A DNA stretch of 61,572 nt from a virus (taxonomy: Duplodnaviria > Caudoviricetes): positions 1 through 61,572 of the IMG/VR virus record IMGVR_UViG_3300025836_000010. One strand, 5' to 3'. This document shows positions 27,122 to 50,777 of this stretch, one piece after another. A model generated the notes under the pieces. The model worked only from the letters and a program-made list of their open reading frames with translations. It searched no databases and was not told where the DNA came from. Within the stretch, counting starts at the first letter, position 1; each line of letters begins with the position of its first letter. The translations under genes were made by a program, and so were the position numbers.

Positions 27122-27454
27122 TCACGGCGCCCTGACGATGACCCTCCCGACCGCCTCGATCAGCGGAATCTCAACGCCGCCCGCCGTCTTCGTGAGGCGC
27201 GTGAGGATGCGGAACTGGCCGGCCACTGTGCCGCCGAGGTCGATGAGGCGGGCCTTGCCGTAGTTCTTGCCGTCGATGACGGACAGCGCGGCGGTAGTGA
27301 AGGACGCCGGCTCGTCGACAAACGCCGCGCCACGCGCCACCATTGCGGCCTTCGCCGTCCAGTCAGCCGGCACGTAGGTGAAGCCCGGCGTCGTGCACTC
27401 GATCTGCCAGATGACGTACTCGTCGGTGCCGAGGATGTAGGTTGCGTCGCTCAT
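27122..27454 (-). CDS. virion-associated hypothetical protein (possible fibre adaptor)
   Basis: AGGAG SD; ATGA coupling; last gene of the tail cluster. Confidence 0.65.
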   Translation of the reverse strand: MSDATYILGTDEYVIWQIECTTPGFTYVPADWTAKAAMVARGAAFVDEPASFTTAALSVIDGKNYGKARLIDLGGTVAGQFRILTRLTKTAGGVEIPLIEAVGRVIVRAP

Positions 27455-30400
27455 TTCTCGTCTCTCCTGACCGCAGCCTTCCAGCCGCTCGGTTGCATGT
27501 CTGCCTGCCATCCATTCGCGCGCAGCCGCGCCGCCCACACCTCTGCCTGCGTCTCCACCGACCAGCCCTCGCGCAGGAGCCGCGCGTTCCAGCCGCTTGG
27601 AACGAGGGTGACGGTGAAGACCATGTCGGGCCACCACACTTTGCCCTCGCCGCTGACCTTGACCTTCGTCGTGGTGAGGGCGCCGGTCCCGGTCGTATAG
27701 ACGGCCGTGGTGCCGATGCCGGCGACGTTGGCGGAGGTGGCGCATAGGCTGCCCGCGCCGAACGTCCTGGACGTGCCCTGGCCCTGCACCCGCGCCGCGC
27801 CCACGGTGACGGTGCCAGTACCGCTGGTCTTGGTCTGTCCGATGCCCGCAACGCTCGTTGCCGCTGCCGTGACCACTCCGGCGCCGACAAAATGGACCGT
27901 GCCCGCGCCGGTGACCGTCGAGGCTCCGGCGGTCAGAGTTCCAGTGCCGAGCGTCTTGGCCGCGCCCGAACCTGCGATCTTAGACTTGCCTGCGGTGAGT
28001 GCGCCGGTTCCTAGAGTCTTCTCAACGCCCGCGCCGGATGCCGACGCCTTGCCGGTCGTCAGCGCACCGGTACCGCTGACGGCGGACGGTGCGGTCGCCG
28101 TGCCTGCCCCGGAGACGGAAGCGCCTGCTGTCGTGAGTGCGCCGTATCCCGAAGTCTCGCCGGGAGCCGTGGCTGTGGCTTCGCCTGCGACCACGACCGT
28201 GGCCGTGGTAAGCGAACCTGTGCCGCTTGTCTTGCTGCCGCCGACGCCGCTTGCAGTCGCGCTGGCGGTTGTGAGCAAGCCCGTGCCAACGGTCGTAGTC
28301 TTGCCCGAACCCGTGACGGAGGCGGTCGCCGTGGTGAGTCCGCCGAGGGCGATATGCTGCCAGTCGCCGACTCCCGCAACTGCGGTGACCGCGACGGTCA
28401 GCGCGCCGGTGCCGCTGGTCTTCGCGGCTCCGCTACCGGAGACGGAAGCGGTGCCCGTCGTCAGAGCGCCGCTGCCTGCGGTCTTCTCGCTGCCCGCTCC
28501 GACTACGGCCGTGGTGGCGGTCGCGAGGGAACCCGCGCCAATGTTCTTGAGCTTGCCTGCGCCCGCGAGGCTGGCCGTACCCGTAGCGAGTACGCCGCTG
28601 CCGTCCGTGGCCGCCGGGACGGTAGCCTCGCCCGCGCCAGCAACTGCGACACTGCCCGTCGTGACGGTGCCCGTCCCCGATGTCGCACCAGGGGCCGTGG
28701 CCTGCGCGGTGCCGTCGACCGTGATATTGGCCGTCGTGAGAACGCCCGAGCCGCTGAGGATCGTGGTGCCTGCGCCGCTCGCCTGCGCCGCTCTCGCGGT
28801 GATCGCGCCTGCGCCAGCCACCGTGGTCTTACCTGCACCCGCCACGGAAGCCGCAGCGGTTGTGAGGCCGCCTATCGAGACGTACTCGGTGTCGCCGATG
28901 CCCGCGACGCTGGCGGCACCCGCTGTGAGCGCGCCAGTCGCTGTGTGCAGCGGTGCGCCGGCGCCGCTGACGGAGAAGGCGGGCACGTCGCAGGTACCGG
29001 CACCGAGCAGATGAACGTCGCCGCTGCCCGCGAGCGACGCGGCTGCCGTCGTGAGTGCGCCAGAGACGCCCGCAGCCTCGGTCTCGAAGTCGACCTCGTC
29101 GCCGTATGCGGTGCCGCCGGCGTTGGTCGCGTAGGCGCGGACGTGGTAGACGGTGTCTGCGTCGAGGTCGGTGAGCGCGCTAGCGAAGGAGATGCCGGAG
29201 GTGCCCGTGCCCGCGAGGCTCGCGGTACCCGCAGTGAGTGCGCCGGTACCTGCGGTCTTGGTAGCGCCGACGCCCGCGACAGATGCTGCAGCGGTAGTTA
29301 GCCCGCCGACTGCTACGTCTTCGGTATCGCCGACTGCGGCTACGCTGACTGTTGCAGTCGTAAGCGCACCTGTACCGACGAAGTACGCGCTACCGACGCC
29401 GGTCGCCGTCGTCGTCGCGGCCGTGAGCGCACCCGCGCTCGTAAAGTGTACCGCGCCGCTGCCGGTGGCCATAGCCGCTCCGGTGGTCGCGGCACCAGTA
29501 CCGATGTTCCTGAAGGTGCCCGCCGCGCCGAGACTCGCGGCTACGGTCGTCAAAGCCCCCGCGCCAGTCGTCTTCTCGCTGCCCGTACCCGCAACGGCAG
29601 CGACTCTCGTCGTGAGCGTGCCTGTGCCCGAAGTCTTGACCGAACCGGAACCGACGATGGCGGCGGCACCTGTGGTGAGCGCACCGGAACCGTTGGGCGT
29701 GCCGACCTCAGTGTCGAACTCCTCGACGTTACCGTAACTGGTGCCCGCCGAGTTGGTCGCGTAGGCGCGCACGTAGTAGTGCGTGTCGGCGGCAAGGTCG
29801 GTGAGGAAACTATCGAACTCGAGCCCGACGGTGCCGCTGCCCGCGATAGCGGATGCGGCGGTCGTGAGCGTGCCCGTGCCCGCGTCCTTGAGTTGACCGG
29901 CCCCTGCGACCTGCGCTGGCGCCGTGGTCAATCCGCCGATAGCGATGTCTTCGGCGTCGCCTGCTCCAGCGGTGCTCGCTGCCGCCGCCGTGATCGCGCC
30001 GATCCCGACAAAGTGCGCTGCACCTGAGCCGGACGTCGAGGCGGCGCCTGTGTCCAGGCTGCCTGCGCCAGCATTCTTGAGCTTCCCGCTACCCGCGACC
30101 GTCGCCGCGGCGCTGGTCAGCCCGCCAGTCGATATGTACTCGTTGTCGCCGACACCAGAGACCGCCGCCTTGCCCGTGGCCAGAGCGCCGCTGCCGGAGG
30201 TCTTCTCGGTGCCAGCACCGATGGCAGATGCCCTGCCTGTGGTAACTGCACCTGCCCCGGCGAAGTGTGCGGTCCCGATTCCGGCGACAGAGGCAGCACC
30301 AGCAGTCAAGGAGCCGCTGCCACTCAGGATCGTGCGCGTTCCGCTGCCGGATACTGCAACTGCACCGACCGTAAGGCCACCTGAGCCAGAGACCTTCGGC

Positions 30401-31500
30401 GTGACCGCGCCCGCGCCAGCGACGGACGCCCTGCCTGTCGTCAGAGCACCCGTACCGGAGACGATGAACTTCCCCGCTCCCGCTACAACCACAGCGGCGA
30501 CCAGCAACACGGCGACGCCCTTGAGGATGTGCTTTGCCGCGCCGGTCACAGCAGGAGAAGCAACAGTGAGCGCGCCCGCCCCGGAAGTCTTGACTGTGCC
30601 CACGCCGCTGACCGATGTCTTCCCGGTCGTGACGGTGCCGGAGCCTTGCGGGTACGTTGATTCTGTCGTCGCGAAGTCGAGTTCGGCTGAGTAGCTCGTC
30701 CCGGCAGTGCTCGTGGCATAGGCCCGGACGTGGTACGTGGTCTCCGCGCCCAGTCCGGTCAGGGCACTCGTGAACGGCGTACCGCCATCGCCCGCACCGG
30801 CAACGCTGGCCGCTCCTGCCACGAGGGCTCCCGAGCCCGTGGTCACAGGTATGACCGTTCCTGCACCGGCAACGCTGGCCGCTCCTGCCACGAGGGCTCC
30901 CGAGCCCGTGGTCACAGGTATGACCGTTCCTGCACCGGCAACGCTGACCGCTCCCGCTGTGAGGGCTCCAGTGCCGCTGGGAATCGTGTAGTAGACGGTG
31001 ATCGTCACATAATCGACGCGGATGTCGGTATTGGCGTTCTTCGCCTGGATGGCGAACTGCATGCCGAAATCGTCGTCGTTGACCATCGCCGGGGTGAGGG
31101 CGACGTTCCACTTATCGGTTATCCCGCCGAAGGTGTAGACGGCGTCGGATGCGGTAAGCGTCCCGCCGTCTGCGGCATTGTTGTCGCCCTCGGCGGCACC
31201 CGAGGCATTGAGTAGCTGGACATCGGACCAAACGGCCTTGGTCGTGCCCGCGTAACAGGCGGCCTCTGCATTGACGGCGAGACCGCCGATGGTCGCGCCC
31301 GCAGGGATGGCGAAGTCGAAGTGCTGTGCCTTGGCTAGGAAACTATAATCAGCGGCGTCGAAGGTGCTGGCGTCGATGTAGGCGTAAGTGCTGTTCTCGG
31401 CCTTGATGCCCGCAATAGTTACCCAGTCGTCATTGCTATACGGAGCTGTAGCGTTGGTGGTGCTGGTGACGGTGGGGTACTTGGTGACGGCGGTAGACAT
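27451..31500 (-). CDS. 1349-aa Gly/Ala/Thr-repeat fibre-like protein with three embedded FN3 C-terminal halves
   Basis: ~21-aa SGTGALTTGAASVAGSG-type repeats; three YxVRAYAT...GTxY...F segments; globular N-terminal domain. Confidence 0.8.
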   Translation of the reverse strand: MSTAVTKYPTVTSTTNATAPYSNDDWVTIAGIKAENSTYAYIDASTFDAADYSFLAKAQHFDFAIPAGATIGGLAVNAEAACYAGTTKAVWSDVQLLNASGAAEGDNNAADGGTLTASDAVYTFGGITDKWNVALTPAMVNDDDFGMQFAIQAKNANTDIRVDYVTITVYYTIPSGTGALTAGAVSVAGAGTVIPVTTGSGALVAGAASVAGAGTVIPVTTGSGALVAGAASVAGAGDGGTPFTSALTGLGAETTYHVRAYATSTAGTSYSAELDFATTESTYPQGSGTVTTGKTSVSGVGTVKTSGAGALTVASPAVTGAAKHILKGVAVLLVAAVVVAGAGKFIVSGTGALTTGRASVAGAGAVTPKVSGSGGLTVGAVAVSGSGTRTILSGSGSLTAGAASVAGIGTAHFAGAGAVTTGRASAIGAGTEKTSGSGALATGKAAVSGVGDNEYISTGGLTSAAATVAGSGKLKNAGAGSLDTGAASTSGSGAAHFVGIGAITAAAASTAGAGDAEDIAIGGLTTAPAQVAGAGQLKDAGTGTLTTAASAIAGSGTVGLEFDSFLTDLAADTHYYVRAYATNSAGTSYGNVEEFDTEVGTPNGSGALTTGAAAIVGSGSVKTSGTGTLTTRVAAVAGTGSEKTTGAGALTTVAASLGAAGTFRNIGTGAATTGAAMATGSGAVHFTSAGALTAATTTATGVGSAYFVGTGALTTATVSVAAVGDTEDVAVGGLTTAAASVAGVGATKTAGTGALTAGTASLAGTGTSGISFASALTDLDADTVYHVRAYATNAGGTAYGDEVDFETEAAGVSGALTTAAASLAGSGDVHLLGAGTCDVPAFSVSGAGAPLHTATGALTAGAASVAGIGDTEYVSIGGLTTAAASVAGAGKTTVAGAGAITARAAQASGAGTTILSGSGVLTTANITVDGTAQATAPGATSGTGTVTTGSVAVAGAGEATVPAATDGSGVLATGTASLAGAGKLKNIGAGSLATATTAVVGAGSEKTAGSGALTTGTASVSGSGAAKTSGTGALTVAVTAVAGVGDWQHIALGGLTTATASVTGSGKTTTVGTGLLTTASATASGVGGSKTSGTGSLTTATVVVAGEATATAPGETSGYGALTTAGASVSGAGTATAPSAVSGTGALTTGKASASGAGVEKTLGTGALTAGKSKIAGSGAAKTLGTGTLTAGASTVTGAGTVHFVGAGVVTAAATSVAGIGQTKTSGTGTVTVGAARVQGQGTSRTFGAGSLCATSANVAGIGTTAVYTTGTGALTTTKVKVSGEGKVWWPDMVFTVTLVPSGWNARLLREGWSVETQAEVWAARLRANGWQADMQPSGWKAAVRRDEK
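30794..30946. repeat. perfect 69-bp tandem repeat (2.2 copies)
   Basis: Units start at 30794, 30863 and 30932; encodes VIPVTTGSGALVAGAASVAGAGT. Confidence 0.9.
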
Positions 31501-32267
31501 TAGTCGTGCGTATGCGAGTCGGCAATGGTCGGGGTACCGCCCATGTTCCAGCAGACGCCCCTCTCGGTAACCTCGGCGCTGCCCTCTGCAACAACCCAGC
31601 CGCCACTCGCGGCGGAGTTCTCAGTGATGGCACTGATGCCCACGATTGTGACGGTGGGGGCGACGGCGGGGACACCGTACTCCACGTATAGTTTCGGGTC
31701 GCGGTCGGTGCCGCCGACGCCGGTGGCGTCGTTGGCGGAATAGAGATAGACGTCTTCCTCGTTGGGAGGCTGTGTCGTGCTCGCGTGCCTGTCGGAGTTC
31801 AGGAGAATGTAAGTCGTGCCGGTTTTGGCGATGTTGCTGAGAAACGCCGATTCGCCGGTGAGTGCGGTGTAGGCGTTCGTGGGAAAGCCGCCACTCGTCG
31901 CGTATGAGGCGAGTAGAGTCAGTGCACCGAGGCTGCTGTCTTTGACCCAGTCGGTGGACACATCAAGACTGCCGCCCCAGTCTTTGAGGCGTGCTTGGAT
32001 GACGAAGTCCGTCGTGCTCTGGTCATAATTCCCGTAGACGCTTAGGGTGGCGGCGGTGGCAGAGTTTTCGGCCCCGACGCCGGAGGTGTCGAACCCGACG
32101 AATGACTCGTAGATGGAGAATCCGGCCTCTTGACCGACAACCATCGTTGACCCGGAGTCGTTTAGGCCCCCCCCGGATGTCGCCCCTGCTGCGGTCGCAT
32201 ACGTCGCGTTGATGGACCTTATCCAGCCGTCAGCCGTCGTGCTCCAGACTGTGAGCGGACTAGCCAT
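31500..32267 (-). CDS. virion protein (DNRLRE/CBM-like beta domain) ending in an FN3 N-terminal half
   Basis: VGFDTSG...ATLSVY...DPKLYVEY, then PTVT...VTERGVCWN..GTPTIADSHTHD-stop. Confidence 0.7.
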   Translation of the reverse strand: MASPLTVWSTTADGWIRSINATYATAAGATSGGGLNDSGSTMVVGQEAGFSIYESFVGFDTSGVGAENSATAATLSVYGNYDQSTTDFVIQARLKDWGGSLDVSTDWVKDSSLGALTLLASYATSGGFPTNAYTALTGESAFLSNIAKTGTTYILLNSDRHASTTQPPNEEDVYLYSANDATGVGGTDRDPKLYVEYGVPAVAPTVTIVGISAITENSAASGGWVVAEGSAEVTERGVCWNMGGTPTIADSHTHD

Positions 32268-32700
32268 GCGTCCACCCGTGGTTTCTGGCGTAGTTCACGA
32301 CGGCCTCATAGACGAAGCCCTGCACGACGGCGGCAAGGTCTTCCATGGTCGCGCCTTGGTCCGTCTCCCCGTTCGTGCCGGGGACGCGCGTCCAGCGGCG
32401 GATCGGCGGGTTGCGGAACAGGTACATCTCGCCCGCCGCGTAGTCGGGCATCGGCAAGGGGCCGTTTGCATCCGAGACGTCGAGCACGAGGCCGAAACAG
32501 CCGCTCACGTAGTGCGCGCTGGCGAGGTCAATGGTGACGCCGTCCACGGTGAAGGTCGTGTAGCGGCTGATGCGGACGAACTTCGTCCCGACCTTGTACT
32601 CGCTCGTGTTCAGCAGGCTGACCAGCGCCTCGGCCTTGCGGTCGGCCTTCTGCGCGTTTGTGAGTCCGGTGAGCAGGTCTGTCAGGGTGGTCTGAGGCAT
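32260..32700 (-). CDS. hypothetical tail-region protein
   Basis: In operon; GAGGG SD. Confidence 0.65.
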   Translation of the reverse strand: MPQTTLTDLLTGLTNAQKADRKAEALVSLLNTSEYKVGTKFVRISRYTTFTVDGVTIDLASAHYVSGCFGLVLDVSDANGPLPMPDYAAGEMYLFRNPPIRRWTRVPGTNGETDQGATMEDLAAVVQGFVYEAVVNYARNHGWTHG

Positions 32701-32745
32701 CAGCTATCCCTCGCCGCGCCGTAGGTCGTGACGTTGAGGCTCAGC

Positions 32746-33561
32746 TCACTCGTCATGCGTATGCGAGTCGGTAATGATTGGCGTACCCGACGTGTTCCAG
32801 CAGACGCCGTAAGTCGTGACCGGGGAATCTCCTTCGTCGGTGATGTTGCCACCACCTGAGGCCGTGGTGCGCGTGATGGCGGTGATAGCCATGGTGGTGA
32901 GGGTGGGGAGATCGGCGGGAGCACCCTCGGTGTAGGTGGGAACGAGCCGCGGGGGGTGGGTGCCGTCAGCGGTGTAACAGGTGGTGGAGTAGTCGCTGTT
33001 CGCCGGGGCCGTGTCGGCTCGGTAGAGGTCGCAGATGGCCACGAGTCGCAGTATGCCGTCGTCGGCAAGCGCGGCGTTGATAGCGTTCACCATATTAGTC
33101 TCATCGACGGTGAACGGCGTGTACGCCGTCATGCCGTCGCCGACTGCCGGGGTGTGGGTGGCGACTAGGGCACTGGGGTTGCTGGAGAACCACCCCGTTG
33201 AGCCGCCGGTACGCCAGTCTGCCCCCGCAGTACCCGCAATACTCCTCCCGTCAGGAGCTGCACCCCAGTCGAAAGCGTAGATCTCTTCGACCTGTCCGTT
33301 GCAATGATCGAGATGGGTGTACCACGGCGCGTAGGTCGCGCTGTCGATGGTCGCGCCCGCCGGAATGCCCGACAGGTCGAAGGCGAGGAAGTACTCCGTC
33401 GCGTAGGTGGGGGCGACGAAGAGGCCGACATTGGTCGTTGCTGCACTGCTGCCCTCTGGGACGTTAGTTCCCGCGAGCGCGACCGCCCACGTCGCGCCGT
33501 CCGTGTAAAAGTCCTGGTCATCGGGAGAGGTTGTCGCGTAAATGGGATCGCCTGATGCCAT
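32746..33561 (-). CDS. virion protein, paralog of 31500..32267, ending in an FN3 N-terminal half
   Basis: LAFDLSGIPAGATIDSAT...PPRLVPTY, then LPTLTT...VTTYGVCWNTSGTPIITDSHTHDE-stop; GAGGAGG SD. Confidence 0.7.
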   Translation of the reverse strand: MASGDPIYATTSPDDQDFYTDGATWAVALAGTNVPEGSSAATTNVGLFVAPTYATEYFLAFDLSGIPAGATIDSATYAPWYTHLDHCNGQVEEIYAFDWGAAPDGRSIAGTAGADWRTGGSTGWFSSNPSALVATHTPAVGDGMTAYTPFTVDETNMVNAINAALADDGILRLVAICDLYRADTAPANSDYSTTCYTADGTHPPRLVPTYTEGAPADLPTLTTMAITAITRTTASGGGNITDEGDSPVTTYGVCWNTSGTPIITDSHTHDE

Positions 33562-33572
33562 GCGTCACCTCC

Positions 33573-35378
33573 TCATACCTTCGTCGGTGGTACGTTGCTG
33601 TGGGCGATGAGTTCGGACCCCGCCCGCCAGTAGAGAGTCCCGGTTTCAGGGACAAAAGCACTTCCTCCTTGACGGACGTAGCCGGTCACGGTGGAACCGC
33701 TGAAATCGTTGTCTTCGCAACTGTAGAAGTAGTTGGCCCCATAGGCTTCGATGGAGTCGCAGCAGCCGCCATCGGTGCCAGTGTTGATAGCGACGCCTGC
33801 AACGCGGACGGAATCAATACTCGCCCACCCGAAGACGCAGCTGGTATCGACGGACGTATCTGTCTGATAAGCGTGCGAGAAGTCGACAGTCCCGCCAGTG
33901 ACGAGGATGTGGGGATCGTCGTTGTCCCCGTTGAAGTTGAAACAGGTCCCGCTCCACCTCCAGAACTCGCAGTCGCGTATCTCGATGTAGTGGCCCTGGT
34001 TGGACTCGAAGACGTTGGAATACTGCTGGCCCCACTCGGGGGTGCCTCCACCGCCGCCCTTGAAGAGGCAGTTTTCGTAGAGGTGCATGTTGTCGCCAGC
34101 GTTGAGGCTGAGTGGTTCAGCCATCGCGGGCTCGAAGGTGCAGCCGGTGAACTTGATGCGCGTGGCGGGACCGTAGGCTCCGTTCTGCTGTTCGTAGCCC
34201 ATGCGGGTGAAGGCGTTGGCCCCACCGTCGGGTGTGCCGAAGAGGCAGTCCGCGAAGGTGAGGTCGTTGACGAGGTCGTTGACGTTGTACCCGGTCGCCA
34301 CTTTGACGCAGTTGACGCCGAAGTCGACACCCTCGCCAACACCCGTGTTGTTGCTGAATGTGCAGTTGAGGAAAGTCATGCGCTCGTGCCTCTTCTCGCC
34401 GTTACCGAGTGAGAGCACGCCCCACGCTGTCCCCGTCATGGTCTGACAGGTAGCGGTGAAGGTGACCCCATCGAAGAGGATGTCGTCGGCGTTGTTGACG
34501 GGGTAGAGGCCGAAGATGGTGGAACTCGTATAGGTCGCCGTGGCGGGATCCCATGTCGCGTTGCTGGGTTCACCCCATTCCGAGCCGGTCTGAGCGATGA
34601 CAGAGTAGGCCACGGCGGTGCTGGTCCCGGTCGTGATGGTCGTCACCGGGTCGATGTAGAAGTCGGCCGCGTTCGACTCGACGCCACCGACGTAGACGCG
34701 GACGCGGTGGTAGGTGTCGGGGTAGCCGGCCTTGCCGGGGCTCATCGCCGGCACGGTGCAGGTGATCGAGGTGTTGCTCCACGAGACGTAGGAGGCAGCC
34801 TCTTTAGTGACGGGTGCCCAGCCCTGAATGTTGACCGGCTCCCCGAACGTGACCGTCGAAGTCCCTTGCGCCGCGCCGAACCCCGTGCCGGTAATGGTCA
34901 CTTCGTCGCCGATGTCGGCGTGGGATGCGGAGAGCGCGATATTGCCGCCGGGGGGCGGTGGCGCGGGTGATTCGATACTGGCGGCAAGGAGCAGGTTCGT
35001 GACGACGAACTTCGACCCGGCGGAGATGGTGTCCGTGGCCAGAACGAGGTCATCTCCGGTAGTAGGTGAGCACGTCCCTTGCAGAACGGTGTCCGAGTTG
35101 GAGGCCAGCACGCGGAAGTGCGTCACGGCGCTGGCGCTCCCGGTGCAATCAGGGTCGACCGCAGCCGTAGCCAGCGCCGCCTCGGCGGCGTAGTCGCCAG
35201 CTACGTAGGATGCAGCCCCGAAGGCGGGCGTCGAGAGCACGCACGTCGCCACCTCTGTGGCGGCAGCGTCATCGGCATGGGTCGGTTCCGAGCCCGTGTA
35301 GATGACAACGCTGCCGTCGTCGCAAAGGTCAGCTACGGCGTCGCAGGCGCCGGTTGCGGCAGCCTCGGACAGCTTCAT
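33573..35378 (-). CDS. tail protein: N-terminal anchor, IPT/TIG domain, parallel beta-helix (possible depolymerase/RBP)
   Basis: VTITGTGFG...VSWSNTSITCTVP (IPT/TIG); repeated F.NC.F/F.GC.F strands. Confidence 0.7.
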   Translation of the reverse strand: MKLSEAAATGACDAVADLCDDGSVVIYTGSEPTHADDAAATEVATCVLSTPAFGAASYVAGDYAAEAALATAAVDPDCTGSASAVTHFRVLASNSDTVLQGTCSPTTGDDLVLATDTISAGSKFVVTNLLLAASIESPAPPPPGGNIALSASHADIGDEVTITGTGFGAAQGTSTVTFGEPVNIQGWAPVTKEAASYVSWSNTSITCTVPAMSPGKAGYPDTYHRVRVYVGGVESNAADFYIDPVTTITTGTSTAVAYSVIAQTGSEWGEPSNATWDPATATYTSSTIFGLYPVNNADDILFDGVTFTATCQTMTGTAWGVLSLGNGEKRHERMTFLNCTFSNNTGVGEGVDFGVNCVKVATGYNVNDLVNDLTFADCLFGTPDGGANAFTRMGYEQQNGAYGPATRIKFTGCTFEPAMAEPLSLNAGDNMHLYENCLFKGGGGGTPEWGQQYSNVFESNQGHYIEIRDCEFWRWSGTCFNFNGDNDDPHILVTGGTVDFSHAYQTDTSVDTSCVFGWASIDSVRVAGVAINTGTDGGCCDSIEAYGANYFYSCEDNDFSGSTVTGYVRQGGSAFVPETGTLYWRAGSELIAHSNVPPTKV

Positions 35379-35383
35379 GTCGT

Positions 35384-35827
35384 TTACGCCTGGTCGATGG
35401 GCACGCTCACGGTGAGAGCGGTGATGTCGACCTGCGAGCCGGTGGCGATGATGGCGCTGTTGAGCACGAGATCGTCGCCCGCCGTTGCCGAGCAGGTACC
35501 TTGCAGGACTGCCGTGCCAGCAGCGTTGCCGAGACGGAAGTGGGTCACGGCTGAGGCGCTGCCGGTGGCGTGTAGGTCGGTAGCGGTCGACGTGAGAGCG
35601 GCGTCCGAGGTGTGCGTGCCACCGACGTAGGATGCAGCACCGAAGGCGGCCTCGGCCAGAGTACAGGTCGCGACTTCGGTCGCGGCGGCGTCGTTGCAGT
35701 GCGTCGGCTCGGTGCCGGTGTAGATGATGAGGAAACCGGGTGGTGTACCAGCGTCGATGAGGTCGACGATGGAGTTGCAGGCAGCGGTGGCTGCGACCTG
35801 GCTTACACGACAGTGATGGGCGGCCAT
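35384..35827 (-). CDS. structural protein, paralog of the N-terminus of 33573..35378
   Basis: IYTG.EPTH..DAAATEVATC...FGAASYV...SAVTHFR shared by both. Confidence 0.75.
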   Translation of the reverse strand: MAAHHCRVSQVAATAACNSIVDLIDAGTPPGFLIIYTGTEPTHCNDAAATEVATCTLAEAAFGAASYVGGTHTSDAALTSTATDLHATGSASAVTHFRLGNAAGTAVLQGTCSATAGDDLVLNSAIIATGSQVDITALTVSVPIDQA

Positions 35828-35952
35828 TACTTGTCACCTTCCTTTGAGTTGTCGGACTTCGGTGGCGTGACGATTCCCACGCCTTTCATCTTGACCTTGA
35901 GGCCCGTGAACACGATCACCGGGGCCTCTTTCTTCTGCGGCTTGTCTGCCAT
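35827..35952 (-). CDS. 41-aa small protein
   Basis: AGGAG SD; TAATG coupling. Confidence 0.55.
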   Translation of the reverse strand: MADKPQKKEAPVIVFTGLKVKMKGVGIVTPPKSDNSKEGDK

Positions 35953-49368: not shown

Positions 49369-49830
49369 TTACGGTGTCACGCGAGCCGTGACATTCAGCG
49401 CGAACTCGACCCACACAACGCGCGCGGGCGGGTCTGGGCGCATGCCCTGGTGCCAGTTCTGCGACGCGATCTGCACGTCCTGCACGCTGCCGGTCATGGT
49501 GTCGTTGCTGCCCAGTTCAGCCACAATCTCGGCAAGGATGGCGGCGCAACGGTCGCGGGCGGCCTTAGCTGAGACGTTGATCCCGAGTTTGCTTGTGGAC
49601 GCGGCCACGAGCAGGCTGCCGGGGACTGAGTACGTCTCCGCGATGACCGTGCTACCCATCGCCGCGAGAGTCTGCTCGACCGTGACCTCCTCGCCGAACT
49701 CGATGCCCTCCATGCCCAGGTCTTCGGGGGCGACCGGGCAAGAAAAGATATTGACGCCGCTCAGGCCGTTCCGGGTGCCCAGCGCACCTACGAGAGAATC
49801 GAGGAAGTCGGGCAGGGTAGTGGGAGCCAT
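49369..49830 (-). CDS. tail terminator/completion protein
   Basis: Position and size. Confidence 0.55.
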   Translation of the reverse strand: MAPTTLPDFLDSLVGALGTRNGLSGVNIFSCPVAPEDLGMEGIEFGEEVTVEQTLAAMGSTVIAETYSVPGSLLVAASTSKLGINVSAKAARDRCAAILAEIVAELGSNDTMTGSVQDVQIASQNWHQGMRPDPPARVVWVEFALNVTARVTP

Positions 49831-50777
49831 TAGCCGAGCCCGGGGCCGGAGTGGTCATAGAGGCGCAGCGCGAGCATCACGTGCGGCAGGCCGGACCAGG
49901 CCCCGCCGTAGCCATCGCCGCGGGTCCACGAGTAGGAGGTGCCCCCCGCCTCGTAGCTGTCGGCCTGCCATGGTGTGTTGCTCGGCGGCATCTCGGTGAT
50001 CGCCACCTCGAGCGCGGCTCGTTTGATGAGCGGCGGCACCGCCGGGTACCCAGCAACGTAGGTGACGCGAGCGTTGGCACGACTGCGAGGCCAGTGCCCC
50101 GCAAGCCACACAATCTCGCCGGTCGGAAGTACCTGGATTGCGCCCAGCTCGTCGGCGGTCAGGTCCGTCCACACGGTCCCGGATCGTAGCGATGCCGAGA
50201 CGACGGTCGTGGGCATGGGCCAGTCGAGGAGCAGGGAGTGGCGCCAGTTGCCGTCGTGGAGCTCGTCGGTGTGCTGCGTCGGAACGAAGTCGACCTTGCA
50301 CGCGGCGGTGAACAGGCTGCGAATCTCGGCTTCCTTGGCGACGATATCGGCATCCAAATACTCCGACGTGTCGGAGAGTTCGGCGATGTGGAAGGCGCGC
50401 GCCTCGGCAACGGTGAAGAGTGTGGTCGGTGCCTCGGCCACAAGGTCGTATCCGACCGCGACCGTGACCGAAGACGGAACAGCACCATCGTTCGTGACCA
50501 CGCAGGCGATGTAGTCGTAGCTGCCGGCGTCGACGCGGTAGACGTTGCCGCCCGTGCCCGAGGTGCTCGGCGCCGCCGTCTCGGTGTAGGCGGCGAGGAT
50601 GGCCCCGGCGGCGACCGTGGCGAAGTCCGCGTTGGCGACGTAGAAGCGCACACTGTGCAGTACGTTGCACTGGACGCGGAAGTCGACCTCGGGCGGAACC
50701 GAGATCAGGTACGCCACGACGGCGCTCGATGCGGCGGCGTTGACCGCGGCAGTGTCGACGAGGACGGTTTCAGCCAT
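49830..50777 (-). CDS. head-tail adaptor (gp6-like) with N-terminal extension
   Basis: LFTVAEAR...VTYVAGYPAVPPLIKRAALE. Confidence 0.7.
   Translation of the reverse strand: MAETVLVDTAAVNAAASSAVVAYLISVPPEVDFRVQCNVLHSVRFYVANADFATVAAGAILAAYTETAAPSTSGTGGNVYRVDAGSYDYIACVVTNDGAVPSSVTVAVGYDLVAEAPTTLFTVAEARAFHIAELSDTSEYLDADIVAKEAEIRSLFTAACKVDFVPTQHTDELHDGNWRHSLLLDWPMPTTVVSASLRSGTVWTDLTADELGAIQVLPTGEIVWLAGHWPRSRANARVTYVAGYPAVPPLIKRAALEVAITEMPPSNTPWQADSYEAGGTSYSWTRGDGYGGAWSGLPHVMLALRLYDHSGPGLG

What the first reader, a model, noticed from the sequence alone, without database searches (positions are those of the whole stretch)
29080..32910. Split FN3-like domain: N-halves terminate two proteins, three C-halves sit inside a giant repeat fibre
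Seen: 32746..33561 and 31500..32267 both end abruptly in PT.T...IT...A.SGG....EG...VT..GVCWN..GTP.I.DSHTHD(E)-stop (~32749-32910 and ~31503-31662). The 1349-aa protein contains F.S.LT.L.A.T.Y.VRAYAT..AGT.Y....F.T three times (~30667-30789, ~29710-29826, ~29080-29196), each with no preceding half. By recollection of the family, these are the first and second halves of one contiguous FN3-like domain common in bacterial surface proteins, broken at the same loop in all five pieces. Inference: a plug-and-socket system in which paralogous carbohydrate-binding-like heads dock onto spaced sites along a fibre by beta-strand complementation, giving a modular, exchangeable adhesin. Alternative: the pieces are joined by DNA rearrangement.
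Basis: partly seen in the sequence, partly recalled or inferred. Interest (0 to 1): 0.88.

Follow-up and report, generated by a model that had tools for sequence, protein, structure and literature searches.

The report
Split FN3 domain in phage fibre
In an uncultured peat/soil phage one small folded domain is encoded as separate halves on different tail-appendage proteins, a layout kept in several other phages, so the halves probably snap together to fasten sugar-binding-like heads onto a long repeat protein, although no binding has been measured.

Summary
Observation confirmed. The window is a complete 61.6-kb virus record. Two paralogous proteins (271 and 255 aa) end in positions 1-52 of a 94-position FN3-like domain. 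The next gene (1349 aa, about fifty 21-residue repeats) carries three copies of positions 51-94 with no first half before them.

The cut is not decay or an assembly error. It falls at the same profile position in seven other lineages whose heads belong to unrelated families. In 3 of the 5 lineages with DNA context, the next gene carries an orphan second half. A fibre-head relative without second halves has no first-half protein nearby. dN/dS of the first half is below 1 in 21 of 21 pairs. Contigs of four runs bridge both stop codons unchanged and show no joints.

Co-folding gave only weak support: 0.53 against a best control of 0.00. Both single-chain models were too poor to use.

Best reading (0.6): fragment complementation docks the heads on the repeat protein. 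The closest solved precedent is Tuc2009 BppU-BppA (PMC4742702). This scan has noted split FN3 domains before on other DNA. I rate it a new variant of a known kind.

The parts
32746..33561 (-). 271-aa protein: CBM96/DNRLRE-like head followed by a C-terminal N-half of the FN3-like domain ('plug' protein 1)
   Evidence: ORF. Paralog of the 255-aa protein (32% identity, E 5e-24). DNRLRE match below cut-off (19.4 bits against 34).
32749..32907 (-). N-half 1: profile positions 1-52 of 94; one residue and then the stop follow the aligned stretch
32260..32700 (-). 146-aa ORF between the two plug genes; no family found and its role is unknown (placing it in the system is a guess)
   Evidence: no significant match.
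31500..32267 (-). 255-aa protein: CBM96/DNRLRE-like head followed by a C-terminal N-half ('plug' protein 2). Its TAA stop overlaps the ATG of the next gene (TAATG).
   Evidence: repeat D9 shows the junction letters. CBM96 20.0 bits against cut-off 26. DNRLRE 22.9 bits against 34. CBM96 clusters among the look-alikes.
31503..31658 (-). N-half 2: profile positions 1-52 of 94, ending at the last residue
27451..31500 (-). 1349-aa repeat protein: N-terminal head (residues 1-176), about fifty 21-residue G-x-G-A-L-T-T-G-x-A-S-V-A-G-A-G-x-x-K-T-S units, three orphan C-halves, and a conserved C-terminal tail
   Evidence: Repeat spacings are mostly multiples of 63 nt.
30973..31500 (-). Head of the repeat protein. 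Homologous heads start the downstream genes in L023 (67% identity) and L099 (55%).
30664..30798 (-). Orphan C-half 1 ('socket'): profile positions 51-94, residues 235-279
   Evidence: (fn3 profile positions 52-78 of 84).
29707..29841 (-). Orphan C-half 2: residues 554-598
29077..29211 (-). Orphan C-half 3: residues 764-808
27454..27633 (-). C-terminal tail with PSGW...GWQADM.PSGW.AAVRR, shared with the L015 repeat protein (65% identity). Possibly the virion-attachment end (inference).

Best explanation
The phage encodes one FN3-like beta-sandwich as separate half-domains. Two paralogous head proteins (271 and 255 aa, heads probably CBM96/DNRLRE-like) end in the first half (strands A to C', about 52 residues). 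The 1349-aa repeat protein encoded next carries three copies of the second half (strands E to G, about 44 residues), spaced along its 21-residue repeats. After translation a first half and a second half fold together into one complete sandwich whose two sheets and core are shared between the chains. This is fragment complementation, and it fastens heads to defined sites on the repeat protein. The 255-aa gene is translationally coupled to the repeat-protein gene, so that pair probably co-folds as it is made.

Shown: the halves, their complementarity, the conserved break point, the conserved gene order and purifying selection.

Inferred: that the halves bind, that the product is a virion fibre, and that the heads bind glycans.
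For: 1. The halves are exactly complementary. All N-half proteins match positions 1-52 (P0004: 1-53) of a 94-position intact-domain profile and end within 0-1 residues of the aligned stretch. Orphan C-halves match from positions 50-61 to 93-94, and an intact control matches 1-94.

2. The same break occurs in seven lineages outside the window: L015, L020/P0005, L021, L023, L100=L101=L102, P0004 and P0026. Their heads are non-homologous: LamG PF13385, DUF4082 PF13313 and others. In my profile census of 175 sequences the classes were 564 intact domains, 13 N-halves followed by a stop, 12 N-halves followed by other sequence and 3 cut by a contig end. Of the 13 stop cases, 6 are the window counted three times and 7 come from five lineages.

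3. Gene order is conserved. In L015, L021 and L100-102 the gene directly after the plug gene has a head, one or more repeat units and then an orphan C-half. In L023 the next gene starts with a homologue of the window's repeat-protein head, and the contig then ends.

4. The stop overlaps the start (TAATG or TGATG) in the window, L021 and L101, and a 3-nt spacer separates them in L015.

5. L099 has a repeat protein with a homologous head (55% identity) but no C-half, and no N-half protein within 20 kb.

6. dN/dS of the N-half is 0.28-0.95, below 1 in 21 of 21 pairs.

7. Co-fold of C-half 1 with flanks (77 aa, 5-row alignment) and the N-half of the 255-aa protein (60 aa, 6 rows) gave ipSAE 0.52/0.53/0.53 against a best of three controls of 0.00. 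The tool's verdict is 'weak support'. Its mark was reached by 58 of 80 solved complexes and 2 of 110 mismatched pairs, but at 0.60 or under by only 7 of those 80 and by both mismatches that passed. The runs agree in at least 92% of contacts and the partner's pLDDT is at least 73. Partner pLDDT was 74 with the C-half and 39 when the C-half chain was replaced. The C-half chain scored 62 with the partner and 33-36 with unrelated partners.

8. There is a solved precedent for the principle. In Tuc2009 the C-terminal hairpin of BppU completes a sheet of the beta-sandwich domain 2 of BppA, which carries a CBM, and the composite resembles a titin domain (PMC4742702, passages read).
Against: No binding has been measured. 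The only co-fold is graded weak. It may pass simply because the two chains look like the halves of solved FN3 domains. No interface was reported.

Both single-chain models were too poor to say what each half does alone (mean pLDDT 45.7 and 38.5). The ESM Atlas holds a confident model of the whole 255-aa protein (pTM 0.76, mean pLDDT 0.85) that I could not inspect. It may mean that the N-half packs on its own head.

The counts do not match: 2 plugs against 3 sockets here, and 1 plug against 2 sockets in the 20 kb of L015. The 271-aa gene is not adjacent to a socket gene.

In L020 no C-half lies in the 3 kb downstream of the plug gene, and the contig ends there. The comparative sample is small: five lineages with DNA context and one negative case.
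Confidence: 0.6

Rival explanations
1. The halves do not pair. The N-half at the end of the head proteins is an independent small module, which either packs on its own head or binds some other conserved virion site. The C-halves are structural inserts that pack against the neighbouring 21-residue repeats.
For: Plug and socket numbers differ. The Atlas holds a confident model of the whole 255-aa protein on its own. The co-fold support is only weak. One repeat unit always precedes a C-half, and one precedes the N-half in L023, so the repeats may take part in the fold.
Against: It does not explain why both pieces keep the family's conserved core residues, stop and start at the same profile position, and travel together in adjacent genes in several lineages. 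It also does not explain why L099 lacks both. The residues before the C-halves show no likeness to an N-half. In the co-fold controls each chain lost confidence without the other.
Confidence: 0.22
2. The pieces are joined into one polypeptide by recoding (frameshift or stop read-through) at the 255-aa/1349-aa junction. This would give an FN3 domain with a roughly 240-residue insert.
For: The stop and the start overlap or nearly touch. In L015 the two genes are in the same frame, separated by a stop and one codon.
Against: The frame relation differs between lineages: a one-base overlap in the window, L021 and L101, but in frame in L015. Each downstream gene has its own conserved Met-start N-terminus, as seen in the window, L023, L099 and L101. 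The 271-aa gene is followed by an unrelated 146-aa ORF. I did not search for a slippery site.
Confidence: 0.06
3. DNA rearrangement (site-specific deletion or inversion) fuses an N-half to a C-half in part of the population.
For: None was found. Contigs cannot show rare variants.
Against: No direct or inverted repeat links an N-half end to a C-half start; the only inverted pair found (I1) does not lie at these borders. All genes are on one strand. Contigs of 4 runs showed no joints, and contigs in all four (e.g. X1, X2, X3, X6) bridge the 31500 junction with no differences.
Confidence: 0.03
4. Decay or assembly artefact: the split domains are broken genes or mis-assemblies.
For: The contigs of the runs break at the 69-nt near-perfect tandem repeat at 30791-30928, which shows that this gene is hard to assemble.
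Against: The same stop positions occur in independent assemblies and in other lineages. dN/dS is below 1. The heads are intact and the two plug proteins are paralogous.
Confidence: 0.02

Closest known systems
Lactococcus phage Tuc2009 baseplate tripod: BppU C-terminal beta-hairpin with BppA domain 2 (PMC4742702; abstract and passages read)
   Same: An accessory protein carries a carbohydrate-binding head and ends in an incomplete beta-sandwich. That sandwich is completed by strands from another virion protein, and the composite looks like an Ig-type (titin) domain.
   Different: In Tuc2009 a 25-residue hairpin at a chain end completes one sheet. Here roughly half of an FN3-like domain (about 44 residues, three strands) would be supplied from internal sites, three per protein, so both sheets and the core would be shared. 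I tested no sequence relation. The present case is predicted, not solved.
Donor-strand complementation and exchange in chaperone-usher pili (recalled from my own knowledge; only a search listing was seen)
   Same: An incomplete Ig-like fold in one subunit is completed by strands of another subunit, which joins the proteins non-covalently into a fibre.
   Different: In pili one strand is missing, and a chaperone and an usher drive the exchange. Here half a domain is missing, no such genes are known in the window, and the sockets sit inside a repeat protein.
Insulin receptor / IGF-1R FnIII-2 with its insert domain (recalled; named in scan note e1-5833351)
   Same: One FN3 domain ends up built from two polypeptide chains, with a large insert in a loop.
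   Different: In the receptor the two chains arise by proteolytic cleavage of one precursor. Here they are separate genes.
Branched receptor-binding-protein systems of Klebsiella, CBA120-like and G7C-like phages, in which an anchor protein carries docking sites for exchangeable depolymerases
   Same: Exchangeable heads dock on a scaffold through a small conserved adaptor module.
   Different: As I recall, those adaptors are complete domains or peptides, not halves of one fold.
The intact 'GVCW...VRAYAT' FN3-like domain of bacterial surface proteins, for example P0006 with a Fib_succ_major domain. 18,935 representative proteins match the N-half profile at E <= 0.001.
   Same: Same sequence family: both halves match the intact-domain profile.
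   Different: In those proteins the domain is contiguous, usually in tandem arrays (564 intact copies in the fetched loci). Here no contiguous copy exists in the genome.

Membership tests
FN3-like 'GVCW...VRAYAT' beta-sandwich domain (no Pfam family of its own; intact copies carry PF00041 fn3 and related hits) | First half (strands A to C') matches the family profile | tested here: met
   Positions 1-52 of 94, at 53.2 and 60.4 bits. E 1e-33 and 2.6e-32 with the split-type profile.
FN3-like 'GVCW...VRAYAT' beta-sandwich domain | Second half (strands E to G) matches the family profile | tested here: met
   Positions 51-94, at 40.8-43.3 bits, three times. Pfam fn3 profile positions 52-78 of 84 at 22.4 bits, below the cut-off of 25.
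FN3-like 'GVCW...VRAYAT' beta-sandwich domain | Both halves contiguous in one polypeptide | tested here: not met
   No N-half lies before any C-half.
FN3-like 'GVCW...VRAYAT' beta-sandwich domain | The two pieces form a seven-strand sandwich | tested here: inconclusive
   Co-fold 0.53 against a best control of 0.00, graded 'weak support', with no interface given.
Inter-chain beta-sandwich completion of the Tuc2009 BppA-BppU type | Accessory protein with a carbohydrate-binding head and a C-terminal incomplete sandwich | tested here: inconclusive
   The incomplete sandwich is shown. The head is only CBM96/DNRLRE-like below the cut-offs, with CBM96 clusters among the look-alikes.
Inter-chain beta-sandwich completion of the Tuc2009 BppA-BppU type | Sequence or fold homology to BppA or BppU | not tested
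   No comparison was run, and my models were too poor for fold searches.
Donor-strand complementation pili | A single missing strand supplied by a terminal extension of the next subunit | tested here: not met
   About 44 residues (three strands) are supplied from internal sites.
Donor-strand complementation pili | Dedicated chaperone and usher | not tested
   Only seven proteins around the locus were scanned against Pfam and PHROGs. None was such a protein.
CBM96 / DNRLRE domain (PF24517, NF033679) | Score above the curated cut-off | tested here: not met
   255-aa protein: 20.0 bits against 26 and 22.9 against 34. 271-aa protein: 19.4 against 34.

The most novel reading that the evidence does not exclude
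The N-half is a portable 'plug' and the C-half a portable 'socket' shared among environmental phages. Any head that ends (or, as perhaps in L007, starts) with the plug could dock on any socket. Heads seen so far are CBM96-like, LamG, DUF4082 and tailspike. Sockets lie inside a repeat fibre (three here, four in P0045) or at the N-terminus of a tail-tip-like protein (L015). Phages could then change host range by swapping or adding one small gene, and could build multivalent, branched adhesins from a single scaffold. Nature would thus have its own non-covalent split-domain ligation kit.
Probability: 0.35. Interest if true: 0.85.

Novelty: new variant of a known kind. Interest (0 to 1): 0.66.

Why it matters
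If the halves do pair, this is a natural way of joining virion proteins in which the gene boundary runs through the middle of a fold. It would explain how diverse lectin-like heads are recruited to one scaffold without any shared complete adaptor domain.

It would also give annotators a simple rule: a protein ending at ...DSHT.D needs a partner that carries ...F.S.LT.L...Y.VRAY. That rule would link receptor-binding genes that otherwise look unrelated.

The half-domains could also serve as a small genetically encoded pair for protein assembly.

The claim is directly testable with two purified fragments.

Tried and rejected
Searches that found nothing:
- DNA and protein searches against cultured phages found no match, so no host or named relative can be given.
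- The search for related loci with the whole 271-aa protein found nothing in viral contigs.
- The repeat-protein head found nothing in 185,579 species genomes.
- A conserved repeat segment found only the three identical contigs I already held.
- PHROGs gave no family for the three proteins.

The exhaustive profile search with the N-half returned 18,935 proteins at E <= 0.001. The 150 listed were all giant multi-copy proteins, so it says nothing about how common the split form is.

Both AlphaFold2 jobs gave unusable models: repeat protein residues 1-420 as a single sequence, mean pLDDT 45.7, and the 255-aa protein with a 9-row alignment, mean pLDDT 38.5. I draw no conclusion from them and ran no fold search.

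I tested for a cryptic N-half before each C-half and rejected it (hhalign probability 0.1%). The DNA-rearrangement and artefact readings are rejected.

No RNA holder was listed among the runs, so nothing can be said about expression.

The 35 other 'orphan C-half' calls of my census lie in loci that lack an N-half stop. I read them by eye. 32 have a divergent N-half or another FN3 subtype upstream, and 2 are cut by contig ends. One (L007, 6253-8541) looks like a true orphan, next to an N-half that continues into non-FN3 sequence.

I asked for no supplementary files.

Three literature searches (listings only) showed no paper describing a genetically split FN3 domain in phage fibres. That is the whole basis for saying I found none in print.
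Full report
WHAT THE WINDOW IS. The window is a whole virus record of 61,572 bases, rated 100% complete, with about 64% G+C. Its structural genes lie on the minus strand. Nearly identical DNA occurs in peat and soil metagenome runs. Neither the 27451-33561 region (DNA) nor the 315-aa ORF at 49830-50777, which I took for the major capsid protein, matches any cultured phage.

The locus lies at the end of the tail module. Upstream are a 147-aa phrog_3758 'virion structural protein' and a TIG/beta-helix protein. Downstream is an exonuclease.

THE OBSERVATION. The 271-aa and 255-aa proteins are paralogues (32% identity over 221 residues, E 5e-24). Both end in ...SGG...GVCWN..GTP.I.DSHTHD(E)-stop.

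The 1349-aa protein starts at an ATG that shares one base with the TAA stop of the 255-aa gene (letters in repeat D9). It consists of:
- a 176-residue head;
- about fifty 21-residue units (G-T-G-A-L-T-T-G-x-A-S-V-A-G-A-G-x-x-K-T-S; DNA spacings mostly multiples of 63 nt);
- three F.S.LT.L...Y.VRAYAT...G..Y.....F.T segments;
- a C-terminal tail.

Profile searches find exactly two N-halves in the whole genome and three C-halves.

ARE THEY HALVES OF ONE DOMAIN? I aligned 200 of them and built a 94-position profile. Its consensus runs PTVTT...SGGNVTSDGG..VTARGVCWNTS.NPTIADSKTTDGSGTGSFTSSLTGL...TTYYVRAYATNSAGTAYGNEVSFTT.

Against this profile:
- the two head proteins match positions 1-52 and then stop;
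- the repeat protein matches positions 51-94 at residues 235-278 and 554-597;
- its third copy matches 28-94 at residues 739-807, with no gain in score, so the extension is noise;
- an intact control (P0006) matches 1-94.

The 56 residues before each orphan C-half are repeat units or the end of a head. They have no likeness to the N-half (hhalign probability 0.1%). Pfam places the first C-half on the last third of fn3 (profile positions 52-78 of 84, below the cut-off).

IS THE SPLIT REAL AND MAINTAINED? Several independent lines say yes.

1. Contigs from four public runs bridge both stop codons without a difference. One of these runs is not flagged as a possible source of the record. No joints were seen.

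2. The same truncation recurs elsewhere. Protein searches found P0004 (DUF4082 head), P0005 (LamG head) and P0026, all ending ...GVCWNT.G.PT.ADSHT..-stop.

3. I scanned 175 sequences: 174 fetched loci, two of which are pieces of the window, plus the window itself. My profile census counted 564 intact domains and 13 N-halves followed by a stop. Six of the 13 are the window seen three times. The other seven come from L015, L020 (equals P0005 apart from one residue), L021, L023 and L100/L101/L102. The last three are identical over 3.2 kb. All stop at profile position 52 or 53.

4. Gene order is conserved.
   - In L015 (a 94-kb viral contig) the plug gene is followed after 3 nt by a 940-aa protein. 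This protein has a head, one repeat unit, an orphan C-half, a different type of repeat of similar period (WEGSF.C.G.SAVA), and the same C-terminal PSGW...GWQADM.PSGW.AAVRR tail as the window protein.
   - In L021 and L100-102 the plug gene's stop overlaps the ATG of a gene with a head, repeat units and an orphan C-half. The L101 protein shares a 99-residue repeat segment at 66% identity with the window protein.
   - In L023 the next gene begins with a 67%-identical homologue of the window's repeat-protein head, and the contig then ends.
   - In L020 no C-half is seen in the remaining 3 kb.

5. One negative case fits. L099 has a 55%-identical head followed by repeats, but no C-half and no N-half protein in 20 kb.

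6. P0045 has the same repeats and four orphan C-halves. Its context could not be fetched.

7. dN/dS across the 52 N-half codons is 0.28-0.95, below 1 in 21 of 21 pairs. The sequences are short and GC-biased, so this is only a rough measure.

DO THE HALVES BIND? This was not measured. I ran one co-fold. One chain was repeat-protein residues 222-298, with a 5-row alignment. The other was the last 60 residues of the 255-aa protein, with a 6-row alignment.

The co-fold gave ipSAE 0.52/0.53/0.53 against 0.00 for the best of three controls. The tool grades this as weak support. Its mark was reached by 58 of 80 solved complexes and 2 of 110 mismatched pairs. At 0.60 or under it was reached by only 7 of those 80, and by both of the mismatches that passed. 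The runs agree in at least 92% of contacts, and the partner's pLDDT is at least 73.

Each chain lost confidence without the other. The partner fell from 74 to 39, and the C-half chain from 62 to 33-36. Because the chains are the two halves of a fold with many solved examples, the pass may reflect that likeness. No interface was reported.

The two single-chain AlphaFold2 models were too poor to use. The ESM Atlas holds a confident model of the whole 255-aa protein (pTM 0.76) that I could not inspect. This stands as an unresolved point against the reading.

MECHANISM PROPOSED. I give fragment complementation a confidence of 0.6. In the FN3 topology, as I recall it, strands A, B and E form one sheet and C, C', F and G form the other. 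A plug (A to C') and a socket (E to G) would therefore share both sheets and the hydrophobic core. That would be a very intimate, probably irreversible joint.

Translational coupling of the 255-aa gene to the repeat-protein gene would favour co-folding. The paralogous 271-aa protein, or further copies of either, could fill the other two sockets.

The heads are probably CBM96/DNRLRE-like. All their matches are below the curated cut-offs, and CBM96 clusters rank among the language-model look-alikes at 0.95-0.96. The assembly would therefore be a multivalent glycan-binding appendage.

In L015 a second orphan C-half forms the very N-terminus of a 622-aa protein. Its remaining sequence resembles, by my eye, the 6704-8440 gene that lies 1.5 kb upstream of the repeat-protein gene in L099. 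I took it for a tail-tip protein by that likeness alone and ran no alignment or family search. So sockets are not confined to repeat proteins.

RIVALS.
- Independent modules that never pair (0.22). This leaves the exact complementarity and the co-travel unexplained.
- Recoding into one chain (0.06). The frame relations differ between lineages, and each downstream gene has its own conserved start.
- DNA rearrangement (0.03). No repeats are shared between N-half ends and C-half starts, and no joints were seen.
- Decay or artefact (0.02). This is contradicted.

WHAT IS KNOWN. The closest solved case is Tuc2009. There the 25-residue C-terminal hairpin of BppU 'completes one of [the] beta-sheets' of BppA domain 2, BppA domain 1 is a CBM, and the composite resembles a titin domain (PMC4742702, passages read).

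Three other analogues are recalled rather than checked here: donor-strand complementation in pili, the two-chain FnIII-2 of the insulin receptor, and the branched receptor-binding systems of Klebsiella- and CBA120-type phages.

Three full-text searches listed no paper on a genetically split FN3 domain in phage fibres (listings only).

This scan's own notes hold 36 findings with these words in at least 30 genomes, and one look-alike by sequence. They are AI notes and I did not test them, apart from the Tuc2009 lead.

VERDICT. It is a new variant of a known kind, inter-chain completion of a beta-sandwich. It is distinguished by a half-domain cut, by several internal sockets per scaffold, and by a plug shared among unrelated heads. 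Interest 0.66.

Noticed in passing
L101:9482-11650 (also in L100 and L102): Within its repeats the repeat protein holds a roughly 60-residue piece that looks like the start of a pectate-lyase/tailspike beta-helix (VNVKDYGAVGDGATDD...LYFPEGIYY...), and the repeats then resume. It may be another partial domain.
   Followed up: no
L007:4760-8541 (also L008): An N-half sits near the N-terminus of a tailspike-like protein and runs on into non-FN3 sequence. The next gene has an orphan C-half at about residue 83. The plug may therefore also be used at N-termini.
   Followed up: partly
L015:988-2853: A 622-aa protein begins directly with an orphan C-half (residues 6-42). Its ATG overlaps the stop of the upstream beta-helix gene. 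I called it tail-tip-like only from its likeness by eye to L099 6704-8440.
   Followed up: partly
L023:1410-2510: This LamG-headed plug protein carries one fibre-type repeat unit (GSGALTTGAAIIAAGTGT) directly before its N-half.
   Followed up: no
window 30791-30928: Two 69-nt units are 99% identical in tandem (a third is 65% identical). This looks like a recent expansion of the 23-residue units just before C-half 1. Contigs of all the runs laid break here.
   Followed up: partly
window 32242-32449: In run X3 a second, minor contig differs at 17 places and lacks 3 nt within the 146-aa ORF. This indicates a co-occurring strain variant of that gene.
   Followed up: no
window 33573-35837: The 754-aa ORF call is probably too long. 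Its first roughly 150 residues overlap, in another frame, the 147-aa phrog_3758 gene (35384-35827). A second phrog_3758-like domain (residues 155-284) then leads into the TIG and beta-helix-like parts. This suggests tandem paralogues, one of them fused to a tailspike.
   Followed up: no
P0060, P0063, P0066: The same roughly 21-residue G-T-G-x-L repeat occurs in other large proteins without C-halves, some of them with LamG domains. The repeat has no Pfam, PHROG or NCBIfam family.
   Followed up: no
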